Numbered from the stretch's first letter, positions 15,313 through 59,576 are shown. The stretch: DNA of 64,000 nt from a virus (IMGVR_UViG_3300037804_000367:32001-96000); one strand, 5' to 3'. Numbers and translations are program-made. The notes: generated by a model not told the origin, from the sequence alone.

Positions 15313-15561
15313 TCATGATAGATGTTTCTTCATTTCAAATGCTAGATAATGATTATCAAAATCTTCTTGTGTGGAAAGAACAAGCATCTGTTTAATTATT
15401 AGTTCTTGTAACCCGCTTCTGAATCTAAACAACTCGCATTTGTTGGTCGTATTCTCCCATCCGACACATATCAATTTAAATAATTCATTGTCCCAATTGC
15501 TAGTTGTAACATAAATGGCCATTGTTCCATTTGACCAATATGTTTTGTTAAAGTTCATCAT
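15313..15561 (-). CDS. Hypothetical protein with C-terminal MxxHL tag
   Basis: Ends FEMKKHLS*. Confidence 0.75.
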   Translation of the reverse strand: MMNFNKTYWSNGTMAIYVTTSNWDNELFKLICVGWENTTNKCELFRFRSGLQELIIKQMLVLSTQEDFDNHYLAFEMKKHLS

Positions 15562-16245
15562 TGATGTTTGCTCGGTTCTATTTTAAAAACCAAAATATAA
15601 TCATCGCGTACCACGTTACATCAAGAAGCTTTCCAAATGTAGACTGAGCTACTGCGCGTCCGAACCAACCACACACTCTCATGTAAGAGTTTCTAACACC
15701 TAGTACGATACCATAACCAATTATTAATGATAGTAGAATTAGATTAATCATTTTTTATCTCCATTAATTGTTGCGTTGTTATTGTTCGGGAAACAAATTC
15801 ACATTTAACACCAACTGCTCTCATTTGTTCGACAGTCATCTTATCATGTTTATAACGTTTGATTTCTTTATTGTTAGTCAGGTCGTAAATGTAGTATGAT
15901 TTAAATGATAGCTTATTTGGAATTTTTAGACATTTAACTATTTTACCATCAATAAAGTATTCAATTTTTGATGTTGGAAATGGGGTAGCAAATCCATTAG
16001 GGGTTGAGTTGTTATCCATTTTTATTCACCCCAAGCACTTTTAATGTTTAGCATTCTAACAGCCATCTTTGCAAACTGACTATTGGCTCCGTCGTGCTTG
16101 TAACCAATACCTATAAGCAGAGCTACATCTTCTGTTTCTGCAATCATACTCAGTTCCTTTCCATCAACCACTGGCTTGAAGTAATTTATAACATCTAAAG
16201 ATGGAATATTATTTGCACCTGTGTTCTGATATTGTTTAACTGTAA

Positions 16246-16578
16246 TCATTTTTTGTACTCCTGGTTGTGTAAATGTTTACTCATCTGTTTTGTTAGTATG
16301 AATTGTTGAGCTGTTAGTTTATCAATTGTTCGCCAATGGCCTGGAATGTCATAGCTGACATGTTGCCATCCTAATATTGACAACCACTTATAATTAGTAT
16401 CCCCTTTGCTTGCAAACAATACAAAGTTTTTGTCATCGGAATAGTTTGTCAAGAAGAACTTGTTCATTGTGTCAACACATAATTTCTCTTTGACATCATT
16501 CATTTTAACTACAACCCTTTTCGCCATTACACACTGTACACATGGTCTGCATGTTGCTAATGTTATTTGAACCACCAT
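16246..16578 (-). CDS. Hypothetical protein with MxxHL tag
   Basis: Ends KQMSKHLHNQEYKK*. Confidence 0.65.
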   Translation of the reverse strand: MVVQITLATCRPCVQCVMAKRVVVKMNDVKEKLCVDTMNKFFLTNYSDDKNFVLFASKGDTNYKWLSILGWQHVSYDIPGHWRTIDKLTAQQFILTKQMSKHLHNQEYKK

Positions 16579-16909
16579 TACTCTTAGCCAGTATGTGATC
16601 TTTAGTCATGAGAACTTCATTACCATTTGAGTCCATACCGTACAGATTGATATGGTAACCTTTTTCAGTATAGTTTTTTTCAAGTGCTAAGAACTTACCT
16701 TTAGCTGAACACGCTACGCAATCAACTCCTTTTTCTTTAAAAGTTAATAACCGTAATGAAGACATGTTAATAGTTTCTCCATTAAGTTCAATATTTACTC
16801 TGTTTTTACTAGAAGTTTTGTTAGTAGCAAACTTTAAAATAGATAAATCTTCAAGTATGGAGTGACGGAAATACGTTGGTCTAGTTTTCTTTGTTGATTT
16901 CTTTTTCAT
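16505..16909 (-). CDS. HNH endonuclease
   Basis: MTKDHILAKSNGGSNNISNMQTMCTVCNGEKG; CxxC. Confidence 0.88.
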   Translation of the reverse strand: MKKKSTKKTRPTYFRHSILEDLSILKFATNKTSSKNRVNIELNGETINMSSLRLLTFKEKGVDCVACSAKGKFLALEKNYTEKGYHINLYGMDSNGNEVLMTKDHILAKSNGGSNNISNMQTMCTVCNGEKGCS

Positions 16910-16910
16910 T

Positions 16911-17291
16911 TTACATTGCTCTCAGTACAGAGGACACAGGGAGCTTGAATGATTTACCAGTGGCAACTTCAATAGCCATTACTGGATAACGTTTTGCTCT
17001 TGTGTTCCAACCACTGACCTTGAACTTCTTTGATTGTAAAGTTATGGTTGAATTAAGAAGAGACTTTTTGAGTCCGTGTCTTTCAGCATAGAAGTTCCAA
17101 GCCTCAACTTCTTTTGAATCAGCTACTGTACCATTTGCTTTGACGTCGAGGAACTCAACCTTCATTGAGAATTGTTCTTTATTATAAGAGGCGCGACCAG
17201 TTTTGAATTTAACACTATGTTTCTTTTCAATTTTCTTCATAGCAGCTTCCATGTCTTTGCGAATTGCATCAATCTTTGAAGTAGTAATCAT
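16911..17291 (-). CDS. Basic hypothetical protein, first gene of a module
   Basis: Follows the 17331 promoter; 126 aa. Confidence 0.7.
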   Translation of the reverse strand: MITTSKIDAIRKDMEAAMKKIEKKHSVKFKTGRASYNKEQFSMKVEFLDVKANGTVADSKEVEAWNFYAERHGLKKSLLNSTITLQSKKFKVSGWNTRAKRYPVMAIEVATGKSFKLPVSSVLRAM

Positions 17292-17330
17292 ATTTGTGTC
17301 TCTCTTTTAATTTATTTTCTTACCTATTCT

Positions 17331-17358
17331 AATATAAGCCCTTAACAGGATAAGTCAA
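17331..17358 (-). promoter_or_regulatory. Early-type promoter
   Basis: TTGACT-N16-TATATT. Confidence 0.8.
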
Positions 17359-17366
17359 CAACAAAG

Positions 17367-17804
17367 TTAAACTAAATGCTTACTCATTTCAATATAAAGT
17401 AACACTTCGCTTGATGGGTCGTCAATATATTGAATAGCTTGACCATTTTGTTGCACGGACGCTAATTGAACTTCTCGAGAAGGGTCTTTTATATATTCAA
17501 TAGCGTGTCCATTTTGTTGTACAGCAGCAATTTGGACTTCTCGAGAAGGGTCTGTAATACATATAATAGCGTATCCATTTTCCTGCATAGCCACGAGTTG
17601 AACTTTTTGAGAAGGCTCTTTAATATATTGAATAGTGTGTCCATCTTGTTGCACAGCAGCTAGTTGGATTTCGAAAGATGGATTGTCAATATATTGAATT
17701 GTGTATTCGTCTTGTTGTACAGCTGCTAGTTGAATATCTTCACTAGGATTTTTAATAAATCTAATATCATATCCATCTAGTTGCACTTTCTGTAAGTCGG
17801 TCAT
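17367..17804 (-). CDS. 22-aa helical repeat protein (DUF4116-like), 5 full repeats, MxxHL tag
   Basis: EIQLAAVQQDGYxIQYIxNPS repeats; ends EMSKHLV*. Confidence 0.85.
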   Translation of the reverse strand: MTDLQKVQLDGYDIRFIKNPSEDIQLAAVQQDEYTIQYIDNPSFEIQLAAVQQDGHTIQYIKEPSQKVQLVAMQENGYAIICITDPSREVQIAAVQQNGHAIEYIKDPSREVQLASVQQNGQAIQYIDDPSSEVLLYIEMSKHLV

Positions 17805-18172
17805 GATAAATGTTCACTCATTTTAATAAAAAGTAACACTTCTTTACATGGATTGTCAATATATTGAATAGTGTATACATTTTGTTGTACAGCAGCAAGT
17901 TGAATTTCAATTGATGGATTGTTTATGTAGGTTATAGCATTTCCATATTGTTGTACAGCAGCAAGTTGAATTTCAATTGATGGATTGTCAATGAATCGAA
18001 TAACATACCCCTCTTGTTGTACAGCAGCAAGTTGAACTTCTCGAGAAGGGTCTTTAATATATTGAATAACATACCCCTCTTGTTGTACAGCAGCAAGTTG
18101 AACTTCTCGAGAAGGGTCTTTAATATATTGAATAGCATATCCACTTTGTTGTACTTTCTGTAAGTCGGTCAT
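17801..18172 (-). CDS. 22-aa repeat protein (DUF4116-like), 4 full repeats, MxxHL tag
   Basis: Contains an exact 66-bp tandem duplication (18001-18132); ends KMSEHLS*. Confidence 0.85.
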   Translation of the reverse strand: MTDLQKVQQSGYAIQYIKDPSREVQLAAVQQEGYVIQYIKDPSREVQLAAVQQEGYVIRFIDNPSIEIQLAAVQQYGNAITYINNPSIEIQLAAVQQNVYTIQYIDNPCKEVLLFIKMSEHLS

Positions 18173-18408
18173 GATAAATGTTCACTCATTTTAATAAAAA
18201 GTAACACTTCTTGAGAAGGGTCTTTTATACATTCAATAGCATATTCACTGTGTTGTACAGCGGCTAGTTGAATTTCAATTGAGGGATTGTTAATAAATTC
18301 AATATTATATCCATCTTGTTGCACAGCAGCTAGTTGGACTTCTCGAGATGGATTGTCAATGTATTGAATAGCATATCCATCTTGTTGTACTTTTTGTAAA
18401 TCAGTCAT
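18169..18408 (-). CDS. 22-aa repeat protein (DUF4116-like), 2 full repeats, MxxHL tag
   Basis: MTDLQKVQ...KMSEHLS*. Confidence 0.85.
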   Translation of the reverse strand: MTDLQKVQQDGYAIQYIDNPSREVQLAAVQQDGYNIEFINNPSIEIQLAAVQHSEYAIECIKDPSQEVLLFIKMSEHLS

Positions 18409-18644
18409 GATAAATGTTTACTCATTTTAATATAAAGTAAAACTTCGCTTGATGGATTGTTTATGTAGTTAATAGCATTTCCATATTGTTGTACAGCAGT
18501 TAGTTGGACTTCACGAGACGGATTGTTAATATATTCAATATTATATCCATCTTGTTGCACAGCAGATAGTTGAATTTCGATAGATGGATCTTTAATATAT
18601 AAAATAGCATATCCATTTTGCTGTACTTTTTGTAAGTCAGTCAT
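18405..18644 (-). CDS. 22-aa repeat protein (DUF4116-like), 2 full repeats, MxxHL tag
   Basis: MTDLQKVQ...KMSKHLS*. Confidence 0.85.
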   Translation of the reverse strand: MTDLQKVQQNGYAILYIKDPSIEIQLSAVQQDGYNIEYINNPSREVQLTAVQQYGNAINYINNPSSEVLLYIKMSKHLS

Positions 18645-19276
18645 AATATATGCTCACTCATTTTACAATGTAGCTTTACAACTTCAGATGGATTGTCAAT
18701 ATAATTAATAGTGTATACATTTTGTTGTACAGCGGCAAGTTGAATTTCACCTGATGGATTGTCTATGTAGTTAATAGCATATCCTCCTTGTTGAACAGCA
18801 GCTATTTGAATCGCTTCGCTTGGATCTTTAATATATTGAATGGCATAACTATTTTGCTGAACTGCGGCTAGTTGAATCTCTTTACTAGGATTGTTAATAT
18901 ATTTAATAGCATATCCACTTTGTTGTGCAGCAGCTAATTGAATCTCTTCAGACGGATTGTTAATATATTCAATTGAGTTTCCATCTTGGTGTACAGCTGC
19001 TAGTTGAATTACTTCACTAGGATTTTTAATAAATTGAATTGCATATCCATGTTGTTGAACAGCTACCAGTTGAATTAATTCAGATGGATTATCAATGTCT
19101 TGAATTGCATAACCATCTTGTTGTACAGCAGCTAATTGAACTTCTTCACTTGGATCTTTAATATATTGAATTGTAATTCCCTTTTGTCGTACAGCAGCTA
19201 GTGGGACTTCGATAGACGGATCTTTAATATCTCGAATAGCATATCCATTTTGCTGTACTTTTTGTAAGTCGGTCAT
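18641..19276 (-). CDS. 22-aa repeat protein (DUF4116-like), 8 full repeats, MxxHL tag
   Basis: MTDLQKVQ...KMSEHIL*. Confidence 0.85.
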   Translation of the reverse strand: MTDLQKVQQNGYAIRDIKDPSIEVPLAAVRQKGITIQYIKDPSEEVQLAAVQQDGYAIQDIDNPSELIQLVAVQQHGYAIQFIKNPSEVIQLAAVHQDGNSIEYINNPSEEIQLAAAQQSGYAIKYINNPSKEIQLAAVQQNSYAIQYIKDPSEAIQIAAVQQGGYAINYIDNPSGEIQLAAVQQNVYTINYIDNPSEVVKLHCKMSEHIL

Positions 19277-19603
19277 TGTGTCCTCTTTTATAATTCGACA
19301 CTACTGTTTGCTACATGTTGCTTTATTCTTTTAGCTAGGCCTTTGCCACCAGCGTCTACTTCTTGTAAGATGTTTTGAACAAGTGATTCCATAAACATAG
19401 TTTGTTCTCTTTCTAACTCTAACTCTCTATACTTGCGCGTAGCTAATTCTTGTTGTGCCATTCTTTCATTGGCCATAAACGATATACACTCTTGTGTACT
19501 GATATAATCAATGTCTGTTTTGAATTCAAACTGTAACTCTTGTTGTAATAAAACTTTAGTTGCAAACTCGGTCATGTTAATATCTCCAGTGTTTAATTTA
19601 ACT

Positions 19604-20131
19604 TTACTTCTTTCTAAATTTAGTAATTATTCTTACATGCAAGCATTGGATATTATATCCGCCTGCATAGATTGCTTCGACACTCATGACAAATTTGTCA
19701 TTGACTAGAAACTCAAAGCAGAATTGAGACTCAACTGTCTTTACAAATGTATCAATTGCTTCGCCGTCTAGTTTCTTTAGAGCTTTTGCTTCAAGTCCCT
19801 TTGCACAATTGTACCACTTCTTGTTGAATACTTTTTCGACATGCTCAATCTGGTAATCTTCTCTACAAAAGATATAATCTTGGTCGGCACGAGCAACGTT
19901 TGCATATTTCCACTCAAGTGAACACTGACTAACCATTTGATCTCTTTTAGAACGAGGCACAGGACGACAACCAGTTATACCAAACTTATCAAGCTTCTCT
20001 GCATTCCAAAGCTCATCGAGTTGATTCATCTTAGCTCTTGCGTTTGCATAAAACTCAAGCTTCTTTTTCTTTTGAATTTCAAAGTGTGGCTTGATTGCTA
20101 GTTTGATTTGGTCAAGTGCTGTCATAATCAT
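19604..20131 (-). CDS. Hypothetical protein, first gene of a module
   Basis: 175 aa; follows the 20164 promoter. Confidence 0.7.
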   Translation of the reverse strand: MIMTALDQIKLAIKPHFEIQKKKKLEFYANARAKMNQLDELWNAEKLDKFGITGCRPVPRSKRDQMVSQCSLEWKYANVARADQDYIFCREDYQIEHVEKVFNKKWYNCAKGLEAKALKKLDGEAIDTFVKTVESQFCFEFLVNDKFVMSVEAIYAGGYNIQCLHVRIITKFRKK

Positions 20132-20163
20132 CTTCCTTTTACATTTTCTTTCTTACCTATATT

Positions 20164-20192
20164 AATATACACTCACAACTGCAATTAGTCAA
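20164..20192 (-). promoter_or_regulatory. Early-type promoter (17-nt spacer variant)
   Basis: TTGACT-N17-TATATT. Confidence 0.75.
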
Positions 20193-20213
20193 GCTGTTTT
20201 ATACAGTTTATAC

Positions 20214-20247
20214 AAAAAAAGATCCAATTAAATTAATAATTGGATCT
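20214..20247 (-). terminator. Intrinsic terminator
   Basis: agatccaatta/taattggatct stem followed by a U-run on the minus strand. Confidence 0.7.
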
Positions 20248-20278
20248 AGTATCTCCAGGTAAGAAGAAAATATGTTAT

Positions 20279-20584
20279 CTAAATGTTAATCTGTCTACAT
20301 GCCTTATCAAAATCTGCTTGCAATTGTTCTAGAGTAGGCCAATTTTCTCTGGCTAGATGTTTCCTCATATGTTGTTCAAGTATTTGTATTTCAAAAATCT
20401 TTTTTGATAGTTGTATATCTGTTATGTCTTGTTCATTTGATTGTAAAAAAGTTGATAAGTGAAAATATTCCCAATAGGAATGTTTTTCATTGTATCGTTC
20501 TACTTCCAAACTTTTTAAATCGCGTGTACGAATGTAAAGGATATCGTGTAAGTAGTTAGAGCTAATCCTCATAAAGTAAAACAT
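20279..20584 (-). CDS. Hypothetical protein with an internal MxxHL motif and C-terminal extension
   Basis: LEQHMRKHLARENW... Confidence 0.7.
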   Translation of the reverse strand: MFYFMRISSNYLHDILYIRTRDLKSLEVERYNEKHSYWEYFHLSTFLQSNEQDITDIQLSKKIFEIQILEQHMRKHLARENWPTLEQLQADFDKACRQINI

Positions 20585-20586
20585 AA

Positions 20587-20904
20587 TTAGTCCAAGTGTT
20601 TTGACATCGCTTTGTTTAACTCATAATGTTCCATGTCTTCTTTTTGCTTATCAGTTAGAGAGTTGTTTACTTTTACACAATACAATTCAACTGAGTTTGG
20701 TCTCATGTTATCATTTAAGTGTCCCACCCCATCTCTATTTTTCATTAAGCAATAAGGAATTTCAAACAGAGCCATCTTTGGTTTGCCTTGTTGTGTATAT
20801 TCATAACCAGTAAAGATTCCAATTCTCATTCCGTATCCTTTATCGCTACTCGGGATAGCAACAATGTCACCTTTTTCAATTGTATTTCCTAACATGTCTG
20901 TCAT
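20587..20904 (-). CDS. SH3/YorX-like hypothetical protein with MxxHL tag
   Basis: DMLGNTIEKGDIVA...; ends KAMSKHLD*. Confidence 0.7.
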   Translation of the reverse strand: MTDMLGNTIEKGDIVAIPSSDKGYGMRIGIFTGYEYTQQGKPKMALFEIPYCLMKNRDGVGHLNDNMRPNSVELYCVKVNNSLTDKQKEDMEHYELNKAMSKHLD

Positions 20905-20920
20905 AAGTTTGCCTTTTAAT

Positions 20921-21175
20921 TTAAATGTTCGTGTTTAGATATTGTCGCATTTTATTTAATGTTTGATAGTGTTCGCGCTTAACAAAATCATATTTTACAT
21001 CGCCAAGACCATTGCCCTTTAAGAACAAATCAAATACTTCAGTGGACATTTTAGTTTGGTGATTGTGAGTGTCGTAGTCGAACAACTTTATTTCATTGTT
21101 CTTCTCATAGAACATATAGAATGATACAACACCGTTACATGTCTTCATTATTAAATCATTAGCTGGATATTTCAT
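20921..21175 (-). CDS. ~82-aa paralogue family member, tag variant
   Basis: IMKT..SFY...KYDFV; ends KMRQYLNTNI*. Confidence 0.75.
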   Translation of the reverse strand: MKYPANDLIMKTCNGVVSFYMFYEKNNEIKLFDYDTHNHQTKMSTEVFDLFLKGNGLGDVKYDFVKREHYQTLNKMRQYLNTNI

Positions 21176-21420
21176 TATACTAAATGCTCGCTCATTGCTT
21201 TGTAAGTTATCATCTGTTCTTTAGTAACAAAATCATATTTGGTTCCTTGAAACCCTTCTAGGAATGATTTGAATAGATTCCTTGATGGTTGTGTACTTAT
21301 TTCAGCGGTTCCATAATAGTATAACATTATCCAATCACATTTTGGACCTAGATCTTTAATATTATAAAAACTTATTTTAGATCCTTTGGTTTTCATTATA
21401 ATATTTGTTCGGTCAATCAT
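21175..21420 (-). CDS. ~82-aa paralogue family member with MxxHL tag
   Basis: Ends KAMSEHLV*. Confidence 0.75.
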   Translation of the reverse strand: MIDRTNIIMKTKGSKISFYNIKDLGPKCDWIMLYYYGTAEISTQPSRNLFKSFLEGFQGTKYDFVTKEQMITYKAMSEHLV

Positions 21421-21421
21421 T

Positions 21422-21682
21422 TTAAACCATCTTTGTTAAATGCTTTCTCATTTTGGAATATGTATTTATTTGGTCTTCAGTAATGTAATCATACTTCTCT
21501 ACTTTAGTACCTTTTAAGTTTGTTTGAAATTGATCAGCTGTTAGTTTGATTCTGCTCATTGGACCATTAGCAGCACGTATTTCAAACAGTTCGATGTCGG
21601 TAGTTTCTTTGGTCCACACTTGAAAGAATGAAACAATGTTTGTTTTGTAATGTGTTACCATTATGAAAGTTCTTTTGCCCAT
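21422..21682 (-). CDS. ~82-aa paralogue family member with MxxHL tag
   Basis: Ends KMRKHLTKMV*. Confidence 0.75.
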   Translation of the reverse strand: MGKRTFIMVTHYKTNIVSFFQVWTKETTDIELFEIRAANGPMSRIKLTADQFQTNLKGTKVEKYDYITEDQINTYSKMRKHLTKMV

Positions 21683-21683
21683 G

Positions 21684-21935
21684 TTAAACTTCCTTATCTA
21701 AATGTTCGTTCATTTTCTTTAATGTTTTCATTTGTGTTTCAGAAACGTATTCAAACTTTACTCCATTCAATCCTCTAAGCAATGCTTGGAACACATGTGG
21801 CGTTAGTTTAGTATGTTCGTCAGGTGGTCTTCCAAACTCATATAACAATACAGACTGATTTGGTTTACCAGCTAGTACAGAATAGAATCTTATTTTGTTA
21901 CCTTCCGTTTCCATAATGATTTCAAGATCGTTCAT
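21684..21935 (-). CDS. ~82-aa paralogue family member with MxxHL tag
   Basis: Ends KMNEHLDKEV*. Confidence 0.75.
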   Translation of the reverse strand: MNDLEIIMETEGNKIRFYSVLAGKPNQSVLLYEFGRPPDEHTKLTPHVFQALLRGLNGVKFEYVSETQMKTLKKMNEHLDKEV

Positions 21936-22139
21936 TTGTGATCGTCTCTGAATACTAACTGATAGTTTACGAATTCGAATAACAATTTAGACTTTGCATA
22001 TAGAATAGCACAAGGCATATCTTTCTTATCATGTGACTCAGCTGCTATCACAAGTCTTTCAAGAGCGGTTGTTAGTTCTTTGATTCGTTCGTCCTTTGTT
22101 TCCTTTGGACACGGTAGGTTTTCTTGAGCCATTATGTTG

Positions 22140-22385
22140 TTACCTTGTTAAATGCTCTTGCATCTTTTGATAAGTTGCTACCCACTCTTCAGTAACCCAG
22201 TCATACTTTATTCCTGGTTTACCTTTTAGGAAATTATCAAACATGTTTCTTGAGGGATGTAAATGTAATTGCGGAGATCCAAACATAAACATTTTTACTC
22301 TTCCCATTTTTGAATCGTAGTCTTCTATTGTAAAGAAGTCTATCTTTTCGTTTTGAGTTCTCTGTATAATGTTTGTTTGTTTCAT
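22140..22385 (-). CDS. ~82-aa paralogue family member with MxxHL tag
   Basis: Ends KMQEHLTR*. Confidence 0.75.
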   Translation of the reverse strand: MKQTNIIQRTQNEKIDFFTIEDYDSKMGRVKMFMFGSPQLHLHPSRNMFDNFLKGKPGIKYDWVTEEWVATYQKMQEHLTR

Positions 22386-22843
22386 TTCTAAAACTTTCCT
22401 TTTATTTGTTCGCCTTTGTAAGTAACATTATGGGGCGCCCAACAACATGAACGATTATTGATATAAGTTTTTACTCTAACCCATTCAAATGGAAAATCAT
22501 TTTTTACTTCCTCAACTCTTCCTAAACCATCCGAACAAATAACTTCCATTCCTAATACAAGATCTTCGAGTTTCATATTTTACCTTTTTTGATCTTTTTG
22601 TAAACTACGTCTTTACCATCTTTTCGATTATCACTAGTACAATGAAAATCAGGATCTGTTAAACATGAACTTTCGTAATCACATCTTTCACAAATAGCAC
22701 CTCCTAGTTCAGGGTAGCCATCACTGATTGCTTCAAAGCCATTAGGTGCTTCGTCTTTATCAATCATTGTTAGTTCCTCTTTTTACATTTTTTTGCCACT
22801 AACCAAATTTCATTATTTTAAAAACATTTCAACAATTGTACTT

Positions 22844-40935: not shown

Positions 40936-40937
40936 TG

Positions 40938-50827: not shown

Positions 50828-50838
50828 CAACAAATGAT

Positions 50839-51614: not shown

Positions 51615-51698
51615 GATACAATTCCTTTTATTGTTGTTTTTACTTATATTAAAATCTAATACAAAGTGACACTACCTTGTACTTTTTTAATATTAAAA

Positions 51699-51771
51699 TG
51701 CCCAGTGTGGGGATCGAACCCACGTCTCAAGGATTTAGAATCCAGCGCAATAACCGCTATACTAACTGAGC
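51699..51771 (-). tRNA. Amber suppressor tRNA (anticodon CUA)
   Basis: GCTCAGT/ACTGGGC-A acceptor; GGA-TTCTAAA-TCC arm; canonical numbering puts CUA at 34-36; GTGGG-TTCGATC-CCCAC T arm. Confidence 0.85.
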
Positions 51772-51782
51772 TTAAAATTAAA

Positions 51783-52091: not shown

Positions 52092-52119
52092 TGTTTATTA
52101 GCTCTTTCTTACTAATATT

Positions 52120-52147
52120 AATATACATCCTTAACTAGACAAGTCAA
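52120..52147 (-). promoter_or_regulatory. Early-type promoter of the suppressor/PTH2 operon
   Basis: TTGACT-N16-TATATT. Confidence 0.8.
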
Positions 52148-52165
52148 CCTCAAACACAAAGTATT

Positions 52166-52573
52166 TTACAAATAAATGTTAAAAAATATTATAGCAAAAG
52201 TATTAATACACACGTGCATAACATTATCAGTAATAATCATTAGCCAAACTGTTAACCAAGGTGGTTTCGAATCGTGATATCCTGTATTAGAACACTCTGA
52301 CCACTTGTGTCTATACGATTTAGGAGCCATGAGATTCTTTAACCAACAAACATATCTCGCTAATCTATATCTGTCTATTAAAAAATGCGTTAATAATATT
52401 ATTAAAAATCCTGGTACGGTTACTATAAACAAGAATGGTAATGAATATATTGTTGCATGGATGAAAGCTGGTAGAAATTTTGACGTTTTGTCACTTGCCA
52501 TCCAATCTGATTGGGTAACATAGTCTCCGATAAAATGAAATAACAATCCAAAATATAATAATTGTTCAATCAT
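52166..52573 (-). CDS. DUF3307-family membrane protein
   Basis: HFIGDYVTQSDWMA...HATIY...THFLID...DNVMH. Confidence 0.85.
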   Translation of the reverse strand: MIEQLLYFGLLFHFIGDYVTQSDWMASDKTSKFLPAFIHATIYSLPFLFIVTVPGFLIILLTHFLIDRYRLARYVCWLKNLMAPKSYRHKWSECSNTGYHDSKPPWLTVWLMIITDNVMHVCINTFAIIFFNIYL

Positions 52574-53838
52574 TTTTGATCTTTCCTTTTATCAGCTTCT
52601 TTATGATCATCCCACCATTGAGCTAACTGTCTAGCTTTTGCAATACGACCATCGTACACGATTCTGTTCAATTGATCATCATCAAGCGACTCCAATTTCT
52701 TACATAACTTTGCCGTAAATTTATGAACTCGTTTACTATCACCGTATACATGTTCAGCTGCTTTTTTTATTTTAGGAGAGTAACTTTGATTCATACTTTC
52801 GAAAATATAAATTAATAGTTTAGCTACTTTCTTTGATTCCTGTTCCCACTTGTCTGGGTGCATATGATCACAATTACATGGCATATTATTCTCCTTTAGG
52901 TTGAATATGAATCTTCAGCAGAAGTAACAACTTCTCCGTCCAAGTAAGCGACTACGCGTGTGGTTACATAAGATCTGTCATATTCTTGTGTAGTGTCTAC
53001 TTCGATGTTCAAAGTCAATTCATCTTTGATTACTTGTCGTACCATGTTATAAATTTCTTCACTTGTGAAGCTTTTTGGATATTCTTCAGTCATTTGTTAA
53101 TTCCTGTTATATCTATCTTGTTCGATTTCATCACGGTATCTATCATGGGCATCATCAACTTGTCGAGGATCATAAACGATTGCTCCGTCTTCTTCTTCAC
53201 AAGTTCCACATCTGTCACATTGATTACCGTTCACAATTTGTGTATTGCCGCAGTTTGGACACATGTCCATATATTATATTCCTTTGTTAAGTTAATTTTA
53301 AAGCTTCTGAATGAGCTTCTTCGAGAGAAAAGAATTGATCAACAAGATGTTCAGCTTCGCCTTCGTGCAGTGAAAACATTCCCATCTTATCCTCATAAAT
53401 TATCCAACCATCATCAACATAAGGAGCTGATTGATATTCAATAAGTCCGTTGTTCTTATCAAACTTGTAGATAACTACACCATTAACAGTTACAGTTTTA
53501 TAAGGTGACATATTACTTCTCAGTTGGTTTCAAAAGTTTAAACATTCTTTTCATGAAAGGAGTCAATTGGTTATTTCTAACTCTGACTTCAACCTTTTCA
53601 TTGTTAAGAAGTTTTGTAATAAGAATTTGTTTATTGTTCCATTTGCAAATAGCACGATTAGTTTCTATGTTATATCCGATCATAGTATTATTACAATGAC
53701 AAGGACTATAAATTTGATACGTAGTTTCTTGTTCCCAATCTAATTCTAATCTAGCTTTTGCGTTACAAATAGCACATGGAAGTATAGCAGGGTTTTTTAC
53801 AATTTGCATAATGTTTCCTTTATTAACTCTTTACTATT

Positions 53839-53866
53839 AATATACTACCTTAAATTAAAAAGTCAA
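53839..53866 (-). promoter_or_regulatory. Early-type promoter
   Basis: TTGACT-N16-TATATT. Confidence 0.78.
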
Positions 53867-54136
53867 CGACAAAGTTAGTTTTTTATTTCGATATCAATAA
53901 TGCACATATAATAATGATTTGCATATCGTTCACCAATACCAATCCAGTTGAATTTATCCACTCGTTCAAACCCAGGAACTATTCCACCGTAAAATTTTTC
54001 ACCAATAGGAGTATCAATATTTGCATATTTTACAGCGGCTTTTTCAGCTTTGTCAAAGGTTGACCAAAATTCTTCTTTGTATGGTCCTTCGTATTTGTTT
54101 CCCAATTCAATTTTAAACGCTTTCATCACAAATTCC

Positions 54137-54754
54137 TCACGTACCTTGCTTTAGAGATTTCCATTTTGATTCTGAGATTTCCATTAATGTACCGTCTTCA
54201 ATTCGGTCCATTAAACTAACGATCTCTCCTCTCCAATCATCAACATTACCATAATTATAATGTGCACAGTACACATACTTGTGCTTGTCACTATAGTCTA
54301 ATATTTCATTTACAAATTCTGTAATAGTTCTAAACTTGGTTCTCATTTCAAATGCATTTATTTCATACACGTCTTCAACAATGCCGTCTACTTTAAAAGA
54401 GGTTCTCGCATCTAGTGTTAATTTGCCATCAGCTTCTGTAAAACATTTACCAATAATTTTCATATCGTTAAACTTTTTGAGCTGTCCGATTGCTAACATA
54501 TCTTGTTCGGATTCATATTTGCACGGATCTTCTTTCGGACCATCAGCAATTAACCCTAATGAGGCAAGTGAAATTTCACTAAAATCGGTTTCAATATATC
54601 TATCTTTAAAATGATTTGATTTAATAACGTATGTGGGAATAAATGAACTTTTACTAACGCTGTGTATACTAGCAACATACCACACTACCCCATAGTAGTC
54701 CATTAGTAATTTGCCTTTCATGCGAAAAAGAGGATCAAAATCTGCATCAGTCAT
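54137..54754 (-). CDS. Hypothetical protein
   Basis: 205-aa ORF, tightly packed. Confidence 0.7.
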   Translation of the reverse strand: MTDADFDPLFRMKGKLLMDYYGVVWYVASIHSVSKSSFIPTYVIKSNHFKDRYIETDFSEISLASLGLIADGPKEDPCKYESEQDMLAIGQLKKFNDMKIIGKCFTEADGKLTLDARTSFKVDGIVEDVYEINAFEMRTKFRTITEFVNEILDYSDKHKYVYCAHYNYGNVDDWRGEIVSLMDRIEDGTLMEISESKWKSLKQGT

Positions 54755-55012
54755 TTAGTTATTCCTTTGGTTTGTACTGAGTTTTTCGTTGTGACTTCCA
54801 ACATCTTTGAGGTTTGGATCTGAATACTCTTTTTCCTGATCCCCAGTACACAGGATCACCCCCATCAAAATCATATGGATTATAATAATTTAATACTATT
54901 CTGTATTCACGTGATGATGTTGTAGTCTGTAGTCGTAGTTTGTAGTTTCTCATGTTTGGTTCCTTTGTTTAAGTTACCTAACACTCTCCTACATAATATT
55001 TAAATCGTTTCA

Positions 55013-55492
55013 TTATCTAGTTAGTTCCCAAAATGTACACTTTCCATCTGGATCTTCTCCAAGATGTACTTTATTTTTCCAATTGTCTTGTAATTTGAAA
55101 TACACGTCGCCTTTGAATTCGCCTTTGACTTCAGTCCAAAGAATTCTATCCGCGTATGGTTCCCAAAGTTTATAAATTTCTGACCCGCCAATGATTACAA
55201 ATTCTTCTGTTTCATTTTGAGCAGTCATTAAACTATCAATGTGATCAATATAGATCCAGCCATCTTCGTGTAGAACACCCGTAGAATCCACTTTCTTTTG
55301 TCTTGTTAGTACAAAATTGTTTCTATTAGGTAACGGCTTCTTGAGCGAGTCAGCAGTCTTTCTACCCATCAGTATGTTCTTACCGGTTGTGTACTTTTTG
55401 AAATGCTTAAAGTCCGATGAAATGTGCCAAGGCATCTTATCACCATCACCAATCAATCCATTTTCGTCACTAGCAAACATCATTGTAATCAT
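55013..55492 (-). CDS. folA: Dihydrofolate reductase
   Basis: ASDENGLIG...MPWHISSDFKHFK...MGRKT..SL..PLPNR.N.VLT...IIGG. Confidence 0.95.
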   Translation of the reverse strand: MITMMFASDENGLIGDGDKMPWHISSDFKHFKKYTTGKNILMGRKTADSLKKPLPNRNNFVLTRQKKVDSTGVLHEDGWIYIDHIDSLMTAQNETEEFVIIGGSEIYKLWEPYADRILWTEVKGEFKGDVYFKLQDNWKNKVHLGEDPDGKCTFWELTR

Positions 55493-55503
55493 ATTGTAAA
55501 TTC

Positions 55504-56319
55504 CTAAGGTTTAAATAAGTGATAAATATTGTCAACGTTTATTGAAAAATCCTGCTCAAATTTTCCCTGAGTGTAAATTTTCGAAATGCTCCGACCTCTA
55601 AATTGTTCAGGTAACATGACTACAACTGGACACACTGGTTTATATGTTACTGGACTGTTTTTAGAAGTGCCCAATAAAATAAATGGATCACAGTGAAGCT
55701 TCTGATATATTTTTATCTGTCGTCCTTTGTTAGTTATATGTCCCACTAATCCAACTTCAGCAAAACTATCATCAAAATTTGACATAGTAAATTGTTCTAT
55801 TTGTTTTATATTCTGAGAATCAGCTATAATAAACTCACTTCCCATTTTGAAAGATTTATTCATTATGTTTCCAATATCACACAACTCAGAGGTTTGCTTT
55901 TCAGTAATCATTTGTACCATACGTTCAATTGTTTCAACATTTAATTCTGCTGACACATCAATGACTGCAATCTCAATCAGCTCTTGCTCCACATCTACAC
56001 CATTAACAGTTTTCATATCTCCGTCTGATAGGTGATGAACGGTACTGTGTAATAACTTTGGTGGAATATCTGTTTGATCATTCGTTGCTTCTACATTTAT
56101 TACTGAATGAGCTATTAAATTAGAAAAGGTTCTAAGAGTTGTTAGTATTGACAATGGTTTTATAAAAAACTTATCCATCTCGTGAGTAGTTTGAAGTACA
56201 GTTGTTGTGCTAGATCGTAGTTTGGTTCCATAAACTTTTGCAGCATCAAGAACTGGATCCCAAGACTGTTTTGGTTTTGTTTTTCGTTTCCAGAATTTGA
56301 GTTTATTTAAATTTAACAT
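55504..56319 (-). CDS. Diverged T4 gp23/gp24-like capsid protein paralogue (truncated HK97-type)
   Basis: GVDVEQELIEIAVIDVSAELNVETI resembles gp23 G.DAE.EL..IL..EI..EIN.E.I; later FIIAD and G...YKP..P.V segments. Confidence 0.55.
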   Translation of the reverse strand: MLNLNKLKFWKRKTKPKQSWDPVLDAAKVYGTKLRSSTTTVLQTTHEMDKFFIKPLSILTTLRTFSNLIAHSVINVEATNDQTDIPPKLLHSTVHHLSDGDMKTVNGVDVEQELIEIAVIDVSAELNVETIERMVQMITEKQTSELCDIGNIMNKSFKMGSEFIIADSQNIKQIEQFTMSNFDDSFAEVGLVGHITNKGRQIKIYQKLHCDPFILLGTSKNSPVTYKPVCPVVVMLPEQFRGRSISKIYTQGKFEQDFSINVDNIYHLFKP

Positions 56320-56592
56320 CTAAAACGTTCGTCATTACCAGATCCACCTGGTTTCAAATGAGGAAATGTAGAATGGCTGCCTGTAGCGTGAACAGCATGT
56401 AGTTGTTCTTTAGTAACATCCGTTTCGCTTTCTCTAAGAGGATCTATTTCATGTACAAATGCTAGATTTAAATGATTTTTAATCAATTTTAATTGTTTTT
56501 CTGAAACTGACGTACACTCTGACAACTCAAAGAATCCCTGTAGCCAAAAGCAAAAATCAATGCTGTTCATATTCATTTCCTATTTAAATTAG

Positions 56593-56666
56593 TGCGCCCA
56601 GAGGGACTCGAACCCACGACCTTCGCTTTATGAGAGCGCTGCTCTAACCAACTGAGCTATAGGCAC
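56593..56666 (-). tRNA. tRNA-Met/Ile2 (CAU)
   Basis: GCGCT-CTCATAA-AGCGA; canonical D and T arms. Confidence 0.9.
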
Positions 56667-56842
56667 TTTTTATATTGTCGTTATTTAGTTTTAAAAAGTA
56701 AACTGAACAATATTTACTTTGTTAGTTTTTCTTGATCTGTTTGATCGGGCACTTCAAATTTTCCATTGACACATCCAACAGAAATCAACATTAATAATAC
56801 TATCAACCATTTTTTCATTTTTGTTTCCTTTTTATTAAATAA

Positions 56843-56928
56843 CGACTTTGGAAGGTTTCGAAGCCTACATACAGTCTGTTCGGAGTTCATCCTACTAAGT
56901 CTCGCGTTGCCAATTAGCGTACAAAGTC
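56843..56928 (-). pseudogene. Degenerate class II-like tRNA
   Basis: GACTTTG/CAAAGTC acceptor and D arm intact; anticodon arm unpaired; 8-nt T loop. Confidence 0.45.
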
Positions 56929-56933
56929 AAAAA

Positions 56934-57069
56934 TGGTGTCGGGAGAAGGGGTTGAACCTCACAATTCGCTTCGTCAAGAAAAGAACTTAATAAGAAAATA
57001 CCTTCCATGGTGTATTAGCTTTTCGTTTCAGTCTATCTGAGAACTATTTTATAGCTAGGACTTTCCGAC
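56934..57069 (-). ncRNA. tRNA-like RNA with encoded CCA and an AU-rich ~100-nt core
   Basis: GTCGGAA...GAGG-TTCAACC-CCTT-C-TCCCGAC-A-CCA. Confidence 0.55.
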
Positions 57070-57150
57070 ACAACCTTTGTCTCTTTTATACTAAAGTTGT
57101 ACACTCTCTTTCGAAAGAGCATTAAAGGCGTCCTAACCCGACATAAAAAA

Positions 57151-57231
57151 TACCCCCAGCAGGATTTGCACCTGCACGCCCGAAGGCAACGAATTTTAAG
57201 TTCGTCATGTCTGCTGTTCCATCATGGGGAC
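57151..57231 (-). tRNA. tRNA-Leu(UAA)
   Basis: ACGAA-CTTAAAA-TTCGT; variable arm TGCC-TTCG-GGCG; T loop TGCAAAT. Confidence 0.85.
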
Positions 57232-57638
57232 GTAAAACCTCTGTATTTTTGTTTCCTCACAGGTTGAGATTGCAGTCCTGTGACTTGATTATCAAAACAA
57301 ATGAACGAGGGATTTGCCCCGCTGACGTTCTGTCTGACCTACCGCTCTGGGAAGTTGTGGAATTGTACCACAAGTACAACTTACAATGTTTAGATAAATT
57401 CGTTAAATTGAAATGTACATGTACTGCTTTTTTTCTTGCAGTTGTTTCACCATAGAGGCATATGTTTTATATGCTTCTTCTCGTGTTGTAAAATTAAATA
57501 TATTGATTTCACTAACACCTTTAAACCAAAATGTCAATTTCAAATCTTCAAACTGACACTGTCTAACATCAAACAAATCTATTACAACTTCGTTTTGCAT
57601 CTTCGCTTCCTTCTTTATTTTTGATTTACTATACTATT

Positions 57639-57666
57639 AATATACACTCTAAAACTAATAAGTCAA
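57639..57666 (-). promoter_or_regulatory. Early-type promoter (drives the second tRNA group)
   Basis: TTGACT-N16-TATATT. Confidence 0.8.
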
Positions 57667-57677
57667 CATCAAATGTA

Positions 57678-57710
57678 AAAGAAAGATGGGAAACTTTCCC
57701 ATCTTTCTTT
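57678..57710. terminator. Intrinsic terminator/hairpin
   Basis: aaagaaagatggga/ttcccatctttcttt. Confidence 0.75.
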
Positions 57711-57891
57711 AATCAAATTTATCATTTGATCGTAATTTAAACATACATGTTGTTCTTTATTGGAGCATTTCTAATCTTTAAAAATGTTCCGAACGTCAAA
57801 AGTTTAAAAAATGTGAAAATGTTACTGTTTACTTATTATAATTATCTGTGTATGTTGTGTACTTTACACAGTAAACACTAATTAATTGCAA

Positions 57892-58893
57892 TTATTTTTC
57901 GTATCCGTTCGGATTTTTAGTTTGCCAATTCCAAGCGTCTGTGATCATATCGTTTATATTTCTTGTCGCTGTCCACCCCAACTCTTGTTTAATGAGATCA
58001 GCTGTGGCAATTACATTTGCAATGTCACCGTCTCTTCTCGGTGCAATCTCATATGCAATCTCCTTCTTTGAAATGTCACGAAAGGCTTGAATCATCTCCA
58101 ATACTGAATATCCTGTCCCCGTGCCAACATTGTAAATTTTAGTTCCATTCATCTTTGCAACAGCGTCTACATGAGCTTGTGCTAAGTCCATCACGTGAAT
58201 GTAATCTCGTACACCAGTGCCATCAGGAGTGTCATAATCATCTCCAAAAACCATTACCTTTGATCTTTTTCCACATGCTACTTGTTGAACAAACGGAAGC
58301 AAGTTTGCTGGATATTTCGGATCCTCTCCTATTTGTCCCGACACATGAGCGCCCACAGGATTAAAGTATCTAAGTAGGGTAACATTCTTATCATTTGCAT
58401 TGGCCCAATCGCTTAATATCTCCTCTGTCATTAATTTGGTCCTACCGTAAGGATTGGTTGGTCCTAAAGCAGACAATTCGCTTACAGGTGCATTACTAGC
58501 CTTATAAACAGTAGCTGAAGAGCTAAAAATAATGTTCTTTACCTTCGAGACCTTCATTGACTCTATTAAGTTAAGTGTCCCTGTTATATTATTTTTATAA
58601 TACATGTGAGGATGTTCGACTGATTCGTTTACAGACTTTAAAGCCGCAAAGTGAATTACCGTATCAATGTTCTTTTCCTTTCGACAAATGTCTGTGAGGT
58701 AATTTTGATTGAGAAGGTTTACTCGATGAAACTTTATCTTTTTATTTGTTATCTTTTCAACTCTTTTTAGAGATTCGATTGATGAATTTACAAAATCATC
58801 TATAGCGACCACTTCATATCCATTTTCTAACAATAATAGACACGTGTGTGATCCTATGTAACCACTTGCGCCTGTGACCAAAATCTTTTTCAT
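57892..58893 (-). CDS. galE: UDP-glucose 4-epimerase
   Basis: GASGYIG NAD-binding motif; HFAALKSV.ES; FSSSATVY; YGRTK; LRYFNP; GTGVRDYIHV. Confidence 0.96.
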   Translation of the reverse strand: MKKILVTGASGYIGSHTCLLLLENGYEVVAIDDFVNSSIESLKRVEKITNKKIKFHRVNLLNQNYLTDICRKEKNIDTVIHFAALKSVNESVEHPHMYYKNNITGTLNLIESMKVSKVKNIIFSSSATVYKASNAPVSELSALGPTNPYGRTKLMTEEILSDWANANDKNVTLLRYFNPVGAHVSGQIGEDPKYPANLLPFVQQVACGKRSKVMVFGDDYDTPDGTGVRDYIHVMDLAQAHVDAVAKMNGTKIYNVGTGTGYSVLEMIQAFRDISKKEIAYEIAPRRDGDIANVIATADLIKQELGWTATRNINDMITDAWNWQTKNPNGYEK

Positions 58894-58901
58894 ACATTTC
58901 C

Positions 58902-59576
58902 TTAATTGATATGTTTTGTCATTTCAAAAGTTAAAGTTGCTTTTTCTGTCGGATTTGATATCAAACTATATGTTGTATTATCTTTTTCAATAGCAATAAG
59001 TTGAAGCTCTTCTACAGGGTCATCGATAAATCGTATACACGTTGGATATGTTTGAATAGTATGGATCAAAAAAACCATCGATAGAGGAGGAAAGTTTTTA
59101 AATACACTCCACGTTCTAATAATTTCAGGGTATTTCATTATACACCTTTTAACTATTTCTTCATCAGGATCTTGTATATATCTCATGAACCCGTTTTGAT
59201 TCTGTCCATTTGTTCCTGATGTTGCAAAAAGTTTCTCCTCTTGTGTTTGATTCTGCATGTATTCCAAAGCACGTAAATTACTTTTCAATGCAGCTAAGCG
59301 TACAGCTGAACTCTGAGTTTCTATAAATCTTATACACATTCCATCACGTTTTACAGCAGCTATTTTCACTTGTTCACATGGATTATGAATATGTTTTATA
59401 GACTCTCCTTCTGACCGTACCGCCTTTAATTGTAATTTAAAGTCCGGTATTTTAAAACATTTAATTAATGTAGGGCACTCGGTCACAAGTGCACATTGTT
59501 GTTCTCTAGGATATTGTTCTATGTATGGAGAGTGCTCCTCGAACAGTTGTTGGTATTTTTTATCCAAGCCTCTCAC
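58902..59576 (-). CDS. DUF4116-like repeat protein with tag variant
   Basis: LQLKAVR/VKIAAVK repeats; ends TFEMTKHIN*. Confidence 0.75.
   Translation of the reverse strand: MRGLDKKYQQLFEEHSPYIEQYPREQQCALVTECPTLIKCFKIPDFKLQLKAVRSEGESIKHIHNPCEQVKIAAVKRDGMCIRFIETQSSAVRLAALKSNLRALEYMQNQTQEEKLFATSGTNGQNQNGFMRYIQDPDEEIVKRCIMKYPEIIRTWSVFKNFPPLSMVFLIHTIQTYPTCIRFIDDPVEELQLIAIEKDNTTYSLISNPTEKATLTFEMTKHIN

What the first reader, a model, noticed from the sequence alone, without database searches (positions are those of the whole stretch)
15313..59576. Shared C-terminal (K/E)-M-x-(K/E)-H-L tag on about 38 unrelated early proteins
Seen: about 38 minus-strand ORFs of 70-260 aa end in a short helix such as EMKKHLS*, KMSEHLS*, AMSKHLD*, KMRKHLT*, KMKEHLS*, KMAKHLI*, KMKLHLN* or EMTKHIN* (variants use Y/M/I). 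It usually lies within 0-5 residues of the stop and is preceded by L/F/Y about 3 residues earlier. The bodies belong to at least 4 unrelated families plus singletons. Codons vary synonymously (CAT/CAC, TTA/CTA/TTG, GAA/GAG), so selection acts on the peptide. The tag is absent from recognisable enzymes (NUDIX, DHFR, GalE, QueC, HNH, PTH2) and from the late/structural genes. Inference: a modular variable-binder plus constant-docking-motif system, conceptually like poxvirus ankyrin/F-box adaptors or secretion signals. It could recruit targets to a protease or phage hub, direct localisation, or act as a degron.
Basis: partly seen in the sequence, partly recalled or inferred. Interest (0 to 1): 0.92.

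Follow-up and report, generated by a model that had tools for sequence, protein, structure and literature searches.

The report
Shared C-terminal tag, phage early proteins
About forty otherwise unrelated small early proteins of an uncultured 257-kb marine T4-type phage end in the same short helix (Leu-x-x-Lys-Met-x-x-His-Leu). Selection keeps it at the protein level, and it looks like an address label whose reader is still unknown.

Summary
37 minus-strand ORFs between 15313 and 59576 end in L-x-x-K-M-x-x-[H/Y]-[L/I/M] within 0-8 residues of the stop, and one more (20279-20584) carries a perfect copy 24 residues from the stop. The strict motif is terminal 31 times (30 of these 37 ORFs, plus one borderline hit in a NUDIX gene outside the window) and internal once; shuffles give 0.2 terminal. 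Synonymous codons vary freely, so selection acts on the peptide.

With the tag removed, the bodies fall into 3 families plus 19 singletons with no profile similarity. They have different folds: DUF4116 repeats, a second helical repeat, a beta-rich domain and a nucleotidyltransferase. Metagenomic homologues of the second repeat family stop short of the tag, so it is an add-on.

The window lies in half of a circular ~257-kb T4-type seawater phage. Outside the early block I found the tag only on a nucleotidyltransferase and inside an early operon for a MoxR ATPase and a metallopeptidase-vWA protein. There the tag survives in a relative's orthologue that is only 38% identical overall.

The MoxR/vWA pair is a candidate, not a result. 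This scan has already noted analogous tags with different sequences in other large phages, and I found no paper describing any of them.

The parts
15313..15561 (-). tagged ORF, 82 aa, singleton body, strict tag
17367..17804 (-). tagged ORF, 145 aa, family A (DUF4116 repeats), strict tag
17801..18172 (-). tagged ORF, 123 aa, family A, strict tag
18169..18408 (-). tagged ORF, 79 aa, family A, strict tag
18405..18644 (-). tagged ORF, 79 aa, family A, strict tag
18641..19276 (-). tagged ORF, 211 aa, family A (DUF4116, Pfam E 1e-21), strict tag
20279..20584 (-). ORF, 101 aa, perfect tag but 24 residues before the stop (the only strong internal copy in the early block)
20587..20904 (-). tagged ORF, 105 aa, singleton, strict tag
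20921..21175 (-). tagged ORF, 84 aa, family B, Tyr-for-His variant
21175..21420 (-). tagged ORF, 81 aa, family B, strict tag
21422..21682 (-). tagged ORF, 86 aa, family B, strict tag; AF2 model is beta-rich with a C-terminal helix at 69-84 that holds the tag
21684..21935 (-). tagged ORF, 83 aa, family B, strict tag
22140..22385 (-). tagged ORF, 81 aa, family B, strict tag
22844..23203 (-). tagged ORF, 119 aa, family C (Cys/His-Phe-Asp-Lys-Trp-Phe-Asp helical repeats), strict tag
23193..23459 (-). tagged ORF, 88 aa, singleton, Tyr/Phe variant
26184..26396 (-). tagged ORF, 70 aa, singleton, strict tag
28763..29035 (-). tagged ORF, 90 aa, singleton, strict tag
29392..29709 (-). ORF, 105 aa, degenerate tag (Ala for His)
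29717..30001 (-). tagged ORF, 94 aa, pair D, Tyr variant
30001..30216 (-). tagged ORF, 71 aa, singleton, strict tag ending exactly at the stop
30863..31114 (-). tagged ORF, 83 aa, singleton, strict tag
31111..31623 (-). tagged ORF, 170 aa, pair D, strict tag
31620..31991 (-). tagged ORF, 123 aa, family C, strict tag
31991..32767 (-). tagged ORF, 258 aa, singleton, strict tag
33090..33383 (-). tagged ORF, 97 aa, family C, strict tag
33383..33676 (-). tagged ORF, 97 aa, family C, strict tag
34175..34705 (-). tagged ORF, 176 aa, family C, strict tag
34706..35080 (-). tagged ORF, 124 aa, family C, strict tag (Met for final Leu)
35316..35966 (-). tagged ORF, 216 aa, singleton, strict tag (Met for final Leu)
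40146..40511 (-). tagged ORF, 121 aa, family C, Tyr variant
40513..40935 (-). tagged ORF, 140 aa, family C, strict tag; AF2 pLDDT 96.3, all-helical repeat; the tag lies in the prolonged last helix 116-139
40938..41357 (-). tagged ORF, 139 aa, family C, Tyr variant
41347..41772 (-). tagged ORF, 141 aa, family C, strict tag
41756..42190 (-). tagged ORF, 144 aa, family C, strict tag
42407..42772 (-). family C paralogue, 121 aa, WITHOUT the tag; it ends where the metagenomic homologues end
44652..44933 (-). tagged ORF, 93 aa, singleton, strict tag
44884..45108 (-). tagged ORF, 74 aa, singleton, strict tag 8 residues before the stop
45594..45836 (-). ORF, 80 aa, degenerate tag (Arg for final Leu)
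58902..59576 (-). tagged ORF, 224 aa, family A (DUF4116), strict tag (Ile for final Leu)
11398..60301 (-). early transcription block: 14 near-identical sigma-70-type promoters (TTGACT, 17-nt spacer, TATATT, with a conserved spacer). Their first bases are at 60301, 57666, 53866, 52147, 46340, 42819, 40143, 36405, 30866, 28749, 20192, 17358, 15282 and 11426

Best explanation
The tag is a lineage-specific, roughly 12-16-residue amphipathic helix that has been appended to the C-termini of many unrelated early proteins. It serves as a common docking label. Its conserved narrow face (Leu -4, Met 0, His +3, Leu +4, flanked by Lys -1) would plug into one groove on one shared partner, so about 40 different effector or binder bodies are handled as a group during host take-over.

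Shown: the tag exists, is terminal, is selected as a peptide, sits on unrelated folds, is an add-on relative to outside homologues, and is kept in a fast-diverging orthologue of a related phage.

Inferred: that it binds a single partner. The identity of that partner is open. My first candidate is the phage's own early-expressed MoxR AAA+ ATPase and metallopeptidase-vWA pair (about 0.2). A host hub or protease is the next candidate.
For: Terminal enrichment is 31 against 0.2 expected, with only 1 internal copy; at PSSM score 12 or more it is 38 terminal against 2 internal.

Synonymous codons vary at every conserved position, including the AGT/TCA serine split. Gene junctions of tagged and untagged early genes are alike: 16/37 against 29/78 overlap the next gene. 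So the signal is the peptide, not DNA or RNA.

Tag-stripped bodies form 3 families plus 19 singletons, and the family profiles have hhalign probabilities of 0.2% or less. The folds differ: DUF4116, a helical solenoid with pLDDT 96, a beta-rich domain with pLDDT 84, and a PolyA_pol-type nucleotidyltransferase. In both AF2 models the tag is a terminal helix.

About 25 metagenomic homologues of family C, and one in-phage paralogue (42407-42772), end just before the tag.

The orthologue of the 199-aa operon protein in a relative is 38% identical overall, while the neighbouring DUF2201 protein is 75% identical. Its last 16 residues are nearly unchanged and keep the tag.

In about 240 of the 257 kb, the tags lie only in sigma-70 early units.

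For the MoxR/vWA candidate: one perfect tag and two Tyr-type tag-like endings (one scoring 9.3 in the PSSM, the other below the listing threshold) sit on the three small genes next to or between the DUF2201 and MoxR genes, behind an early-type promoter. Apart from the clamp loader, this MoxR is the only AAA+ protein found in 220 kb of the phage, which has no ClpP or ClpS. MoxR rings are known to grip a partner's extreme C-terminus (NorD on NorQ, PMC13036017).
Against: No partner has been identified.

The distance from the tag to the stop varies from 0 to 8 residues, and one good copy is 24 residues internal, so a free carboxylate is not part of the signal.

In family A the tag replaces the first helix of what would be the next DUF4116 repeat, so its hydrophobic face may partly pack on its own body.

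The link to the MoxR operon is weak. The operon is itself early, and about one early gene in three is tagged, so tagged genes there are not very surprising. In more distant relatives DUF2201 and MoxR are adjacent with no tagged gene nearby. The published proposal for this pair in jumbo phages is virion assembly (PMC7824862).

Only one orthologue in one relative could be compared, so I could not test whether tag and reader change together.
Confidence: 0.5

Rival explanations
1. Timed-disposal label. The tag is a degron or adaptor-binding motif that hands the early proteome to a host AAA+ protease (ClpXP, Lon or FtsH type), or to the phage metallopeptidase, at the switch from early to middle and late development.
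For: The tag is restricted to early transcription units. It lies near the terminus, with exactly one residue after the final Leu in 21/37. It is rich in basic residues followed by non-polar ones, loosely like the MuA-type ClpX motif (my own knowledge). The phage metallopeptidase-vWA protein has an intact HExxH and MIDAS motif.
Against: The tag is predicted to be a well-formed helix continuous with the folded body, whereas classical degrons are disordered. Its distance to the C-terminus is not fixed. No protease contact has been shown. The host is unknown.
Confidence: 0.17
2. Homotypic zipper. The tags bind each other, possibly through a His/Met-liganded metal, so tagged proteins form mixed oligomers or an early-infection assembly without a separate reader.
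For: The conserved residues form one narrow hydrophobic face on an amphipathic helix. Compatibility of every tag with every other would also explain strict conservation across unrelated bodies. Met and His on the same helical face could bind a metal (inference).
Against: The helix is short, with about 9 conserved residues, which is less than typical coiled coils.
Confidence: 0.13
3. Structural cap with no shared partner. A good C-terminal capping or solubilising helix spread among early genes by recombination in a hyperplastic region and is kept for folding reasons.
For: In family A the tag occupies the place of a repeat helix. In family C it prolongs the last repeat helix.
Against: A cap would not need the same Met, His and Leu on alpha-solenoid, beta-rich and nucleotidyltransferase folds. 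Outside homologues fold without it. Codon variation argues against recent copying. The tag is the best-conserved part of a 38%-identical orthologue pair.
Confidence: 0.12
4. All tagged proteins are one highly diverged paralogous family and the helix is simply homologous; or the conservation reflects a nucleic-acid signal (ribosome-binding site, promoter or recombination site).
For: Many tagged genes are tandem paralogues. The stop often overlaps the next start codon.
Against: There is no profile similarity between the bodies, and the Pfam families and folds differ. Synonymous codons vary, including six-fold serine and leucine. Junctions are like those of untagged genes.
Confidence: 0.03

Closest known systems
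T4 sliding-clamp (gp45) docking tails at the C-termini of gp43, gp33 and gp55
   Same: Within a T4-type phage, unrelated proteins share a short C-terminal peptide that plugs them into one hub.
   Different: T4 has three or four replication and transcription proteins with such tails; here about 40 small early accessory proteins carry the tag. The motif is different and helical. The DNA polymerase of this phage does not carry the tag and ends in its own acidic-hydrophobic tail.
C-terminal degrons on unrelated proteins (ssrA tag, MuA-type ClpX motif, Lon-type tails)
   Same: A short terminal label shared by unrelated proteins and read by one AAA+ machine.
   Different: Those labels are disordered and usually sit at the very end. 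This tag is a predicted helix at a variable distance from the end. No protease link is shown.
Poxvirus ankyrin-repeat proteins with a C-terminal PRANC/F-box-like domain
   Same: Multigene families of a large virus combine variable repeat-type binder bodies (here DUF4116 and a second helical repeat) with one constant C-terminal module.
   Different: PRANC is a domain of about 50 residues that binds eukaryotic Skp1. Here the module has about 12 residues and also sits on non-repeat bodies. There is no homology: Pfam scans of 20 tagged proteins found no PRANC or F-box.
MoxR AAA+ / vWA partner systems: NorD C-terminus on the NorQ ring (PMC13036017); MoxR plus metallopeptidase-vWA pair of group 2.2 jumbo phages (PMC7824862)
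   Same: The phage encodes such a pair (AAA_5, and DUF2201_N plus DUF2201 with intact HExxH and MIDAS). Tagged genes are embedded in its operon. MoxR rings can hold a partner by its extreme C-terminus.
   Different: No contact between the tag and either protein is shown. The published proposal for the phage pair is virion maturation. DUF2201 has its own conserved hydrophobic C-terminus, which would be the NorD-like tail.
Lineage-specific C-terminal tags noted by this scan in other large phages (AI notes e1-4772764, e1-5882790, e1-5878633, e1-5882781, e1-5356287, e1-5689604, e1-5411451, e1-5380291, e1-5411460)
   Same: Two of the notes also point to a phage MoxR/vWA pair.
   Different: Each lineage has its own sequence, and this motif was not among them. 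Those notes are unchecked and are not independent evidence.

Membership tests
Single paralogous protein family with a homologous terminal helix | Detectable homology between the bodies once the tag is removed | tested here: not met
   phmmer and iterated HMMs on tag-stripped bodies give 3 families plus 19 singletons. hhalign probabilities between family profiles are 0.2% or less.
Single paralogous protein family with a homologous terminal helix | One common fold | tested here: not met
   The folds are DUF4116 repeats, a different all-helical repeat, a beta-rich domain and a Pol-beta-type nucleotidyltransferase.
DUF4116 (Pfam PF13475), for body family A only | Match to the Pfam model above its gathering score | tested here: met
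   Scores are 56.6, 76.7 and 32.7 bits against a cut-off of 24.9. PHROGs 17056 and 5925 also match.
ssrA/ClpX-type C-terminal degron | Disordered peptide at the extreme C-terminus, with recognition that includes the free carboxylate | tested here: not met
   The tag is helical in both AF2 models, and 0 to 8 residues, once 24, follow it.
ssrA/ClpX-type C-terminal degron | Tag-dependent degradation by an AAA+ protease | not testable with these tools
   The host is unknown and the phage is uncultured, from a seawater metagenome.
T4-type clamp-binding C-terminal tail | Present on the DNA polymerase and late transcription factors | tested here: not met
   The DNA polymerase B (G001:37122-39761) and the gp55-like sigma lack the tag.
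Poxvirus PRANC / F-box-like C-terminal domain | Match to the PRANC or F-box model; a domain of about 50 residues | tested here: not met
   Pfam scans of 20 tagged proteins found no such hit. The conserved core has about 9 residues.
T4 capsid-targeting sequence | N-terminal leader on late, virion-internal proteins, removed by the prohead protease | tested here: not met
   The tag is C-terminal and sits on genes behind sigma-70 early promoters. It is absent from the structural gene blocks examined.
MoxR/vWA client or cofactor | A MoxR ATPase and a vWA protein are encoded together with the tagged genes | tested here: met
   AAA_5 (38 bits) and DUF2201_N plus DUF2201 (68 and 48 bits). Tagged ORFs lie between and next to them.
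MoxR/vWA client or cofactor | Physical docking of the tag on the ATPase ring or the vWA/peptidase protein | tested here: inconclusive
   The only job possible gave no verdict. A MoxR hexamer exceeds the size limit.

The most novel reading that the evidence does not exclude
The phage runs its own tag-and-reader system. An early-expressed MoxR AAA+ ATPase with a zincin-vWA cofactor recognises the L-x-x-K-M-x-x-H-L helix on about 40 early proteins and remodels, activates or clips them as a set. That would be a virus-encoded machine for managing its own early proteome. Together with the analogous tags this scan has noted in other large phages, it would be a general and undescribed layer of phage biology, and it would give a function to the widespread but unexplained phage MoxR/vWA pair.
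Probability: 0.2. Interest if true: 0.88.

Novelty: new variant of a known kind. Interest (0 to 1): 0.72.

Why it matters
Most early genes of large phages are small orphans of unknown function. A label shared by a third of them shows that they are handled by one common partner or process. The tag also gives a handle for pull-downs and a way to recognise effector-type genes in related phages.

Tried and rejected
- **Complex prediction.** The DUF2201 protein (48-row alignment) with a tagged family C protein (28 rows) gave no verdict. This is not evidence either way. A MoxR hexamer with the tag was too large to send.
- **RNA.** No RNA holder was listed among the sequencing runs, so expression could not be examined.
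- **Relatives.**
  - Megablast and tblastn against cultured phages found nothing close.
  - The search for related loci failed or found only the same phage.
  - Family B has no homologue outside this phage.
  - A full HMM search with the 199-aa operon protein found only itself and one orthologue.
  - A census of the tag in a related genome was therefore impossible.
- **Collection-wide DNA pattern.** A degenerate DNA pattern for the tag gives 9 hits in the window against 0.01 expected. By my rough estimate it would give thousands of chance hits in a whole collection, so I did not scan one.
- **Access to the full contig.** The 257-kb ENA contig could not be searched whole. I covered about 240 kb through G000, G001 and four loci.
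- **Fold searches.** The family C and family B models found no significant PDB match.
- **Family scans.** Pfam and PHROGs found nothing for the singletons.
- **Language-model look-alikes.** An ESM Atlas query with 31991-32767 gave only weak hits, all below 0.9.
- **Other phage proteases.** No ClpP or ClpS was found in 220 kb.
- **Literature.** Five full-text searches found no description of such a tag.
- **Explanations rejected:**
  - DNA- or RNA-level signal.
  - One diverged family.
  - Clamp-binding tail.
  - Capsid-targeting signal.

Full report
**Observation.**
I called ORFs across the window and scanned their ends. Thirty-seven minus-strand ORFs between 15313 and 59576 end in M-x-x-[H/Y]-[L/I/M], or a near variant, at most 8 residues from the stop.
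- Thirty fit the strict form, five have Tyr for His, and two are degenerate (29392-29709 and 45594-45836).
- A family-weighted PSSM adds 20279-20584, a perfect copy followed by 24 residues.
- The conserved core is Leu(-4)-x-x-Lys(-1)-Met(0)-[K/S]-[K/E]-His(+3)-Leu(+4), about 23 bits. In 21 of 37 exactly one residue follows it.
- In all 259 ORFs of the 128.8-kb record the strict motif is terminal 31 times and internal once. Shuffles give 0.20 terminal, with a maximum of 3.
- At PSSM score 12 or more there are 38 terminal and 2 internal hits.

**Peptide or nucleic acid?**
Every conserved residue is written with several synonymous codons: His CAT 20/CAC 11; Leu TTA, TTG, CTA, CTT; Lys AAA 17/AAG 8; Ser AGT 6/TCA 5. 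Tagged and untagged early genes have the same kinds of junction with the next gene and the same median length. The signal is therefore in the protein.

**One family or many?**
BLAST groups the tagged proteins into families A (6), B (5), C (11) and a pair D, plus singletons.
- With the last residues removed, phmmer and iterated HMMs leave 3 families and 19 singletons, counting four tagged or tag-like proteins found outside the window.
- Profile-profile comparison of A, B and C gives probabilities of 0.2% or less.
- Family A is DUF4116.
- Family C is a different helical repeat. Its AF2 model has pLDDT 96.3, and the tag sits in the last helix, which runs about 17 residues beyond the length of the corresponding helix in the other repeats.
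- Family B is beta-rich with a terminal helix that carries the tag (pLDDT 84).
- One tagged protein outside the window is a PolyA_pol-type nucleotidyltransferase.
- About 25 metagenomic homologues of family C carry the same repeats but stop just before the tag. So does the untagged paralogue 42407-42772. The tag is therefore an add-on, not an inherited part of the bodies.

**Genome context.**
The window lies in a 128,786-bp IMG/VR record rated 38% complete.
- An ENA contig of 257,096 bp from a seawater sample is 100% identical over the two window stretches I compared (20.3 kb). By my coordinate arithmetic its ends overlap by 55 bp, so the genome is a circle of about 257 kb.
- A second IMG/VR record of 90,831 bp (G001) abuts the first.
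- Gp23, sheath, baseplate, gp25, clamp loader and B-family polymerase genes mark it as a distant T4-type phage. It has no close cultured relative; the best match is about 30% identical.
- The tagged block is transcribed from 14 near-identical sigma-70-type promoters in the window.
- About a third of the ORFs in that block (37 of 116) are tagged.
- In the other roughly 175 kb examined there are no tags on structural or replication proteins, with the exceptions described next.

Earlier notes of this scan on other phages suggested a phage MoxR/vWA pair, so I looked for one.
- Just beyond the end of the first record lies an operon behind an early-type promoter. In order it holds: an 84-aa ORF with a Tyr-type tag-like end; a DUF2201_N plus DUF2201 protein with HExxH and MIDAS intact; a 199-aa ORF with a perfect tag; a 238-aa ORF with a degenerate tag; and an AAA_5 MoxR ATPase.
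- In a relative whose DUF2201 protein is 75% identical, the orthologue of the 199-aa protein is only 38% identical. Its last 16 residues are almost unchanged and keep the tag. This is the only cross-lineage evidence of constraint that I could obtain.
- In another relative (48% identical), three small genes after DUF2201 share a related ending and the gene before it ends in a tag-like helix.
- In more distant relatives the two genes are adjacent and there are no tags nearby.
- Apart from the clamp loader, the MoxR is the only AAA+ protein found in 220 kb, and there is no ClpP or ClpS.
- MoxR rings can hold a partner by its extreme C-terminus (NorD on NorQ, PMC13036017).
- Against this lead: the operon is itself early, where one gene in three is tagged anyway. 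The published suggestion for this pair in jumbo phages is virion maturation (PMC7824862).
- Other conceivable phage readers are a GroEL-like chaperonin and a transglutaminase-like cysteine peptidase at 46384-47157.

**Interpretation.**
On a helical wheel the conserved residues (Leu -4, Met 0, His +3, Leu +4) fall on one narrow face, with Lys -1 beside it. The other positions are polar and variable. That is the signature of a helix that docks in a groove. I therefore read the tag as an address label for one partner (0.5). The partner may be the phage MoxR/vWA-peptidase (0.2), a host hub or protease, or the tags themselves. A purely structural cap is less likely because the same residues are kept on unrelated folds and outside homologues do without them.

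**Novelty.**
Five full-text searches found no description of such tags. This scan has noted analogous, lineage-specific tags in at least nine other large phages. This is therefore a further instance, with a new motif, of a recurrent and apparently unpublished pattern. It adds a concrete genomic link to a candidate reader.

Noticed in passing
window 11398-60301 (minus strand); also genome-wide: About 20 near-identical sigma-70-type promoters (TTGACT, 17-nt spacer, TATATT, with a conserved spacer and downstream bases) head the early operons. Their sequence identity is far higher than promoter function alone needs. They could double as recombination sites, like the T4 promoter-stem-loop cassettes.
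   Followed up: partly
window 51699-51771 (minus strand): ARAGORN calls a tRNA with anticodon CTA (reported as tRNA-Pyl), which would be an amber suppressor. TAG is used as an ordinary stop by at least two tagged early genes (29717-30001 and 34706-35080). I did not examine whether late genes read through TAG.
   Followed up: no
whole record (G000) and loci L005, L008, L031, L032: The record holding the window is only about half of the phage. An ENA contig of 257,096 bp, whose ends overlap by 55 bp on my coordinate arithmetic, and a second IMG/VR record of 90,831 bp complete a circular T4-type genome of about 257 kb.
   Followed up: yes
window 46384-47157 (+): The only plus-strand gene inside the early block encodes a transglutaminase-like cysteine peptidase (Transglut_core, E 1.6e-8).
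   Followed up: partly
window 42841-43572 (-): An early gene has a prepilin-type N-terminal methylation motif (N_methyl, E 1.9e-9), making it a pilin-like protein encoded by a phage.
   Followed up: no
proteins P0001-P0029 (metagenomic homologues of family C): The family C repeat (Cys-x-x-His-Phe-Asp-Lys-Trp-Phe-Asp) occurs in many metagenomic proteins behind a conserved N-terminal domain of about 110 residues that has no Pfam match. The phage versions lack that domain and carry the tag instead.
   Followed up: partly
proteins P0110, P0112, P0124, P0127, P0141: Several unrelated repeat proteins from metagenomes end in one common tail (Cys-Gln-Glu-Glu-Leu-[IM]-x-Ala-Gly-...-Ala-x-Leu). This is another shared C-terminal module, seen by accident.
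   Followed up: no
window 31991-32767 (-): The language-model look-alikes of this 258-aa tagged protein that carry a Pfam family all belong to DEDDh exonuclease families. The scores are only 0.76-0.82, so this is a weak lead.
   Followed up: no
L008 8703-9871 (around the end of G000): Two ORFs (103 and 202 aa) with the same first 30 residues and weak sigma-70 region 2 and 4 matches (gp55-like) lie around the point where the IMG/VR record breaks. This is probably a repeat that stopped the assembly.
   Followed up: no
L008 1-168 / G001:80823-82451: The phage encodes a full-length GroEL-type chaperonin (Cpn60_TCP1, 542 aa) a few kb upstream of the MoxR operon.
   Followed up: no
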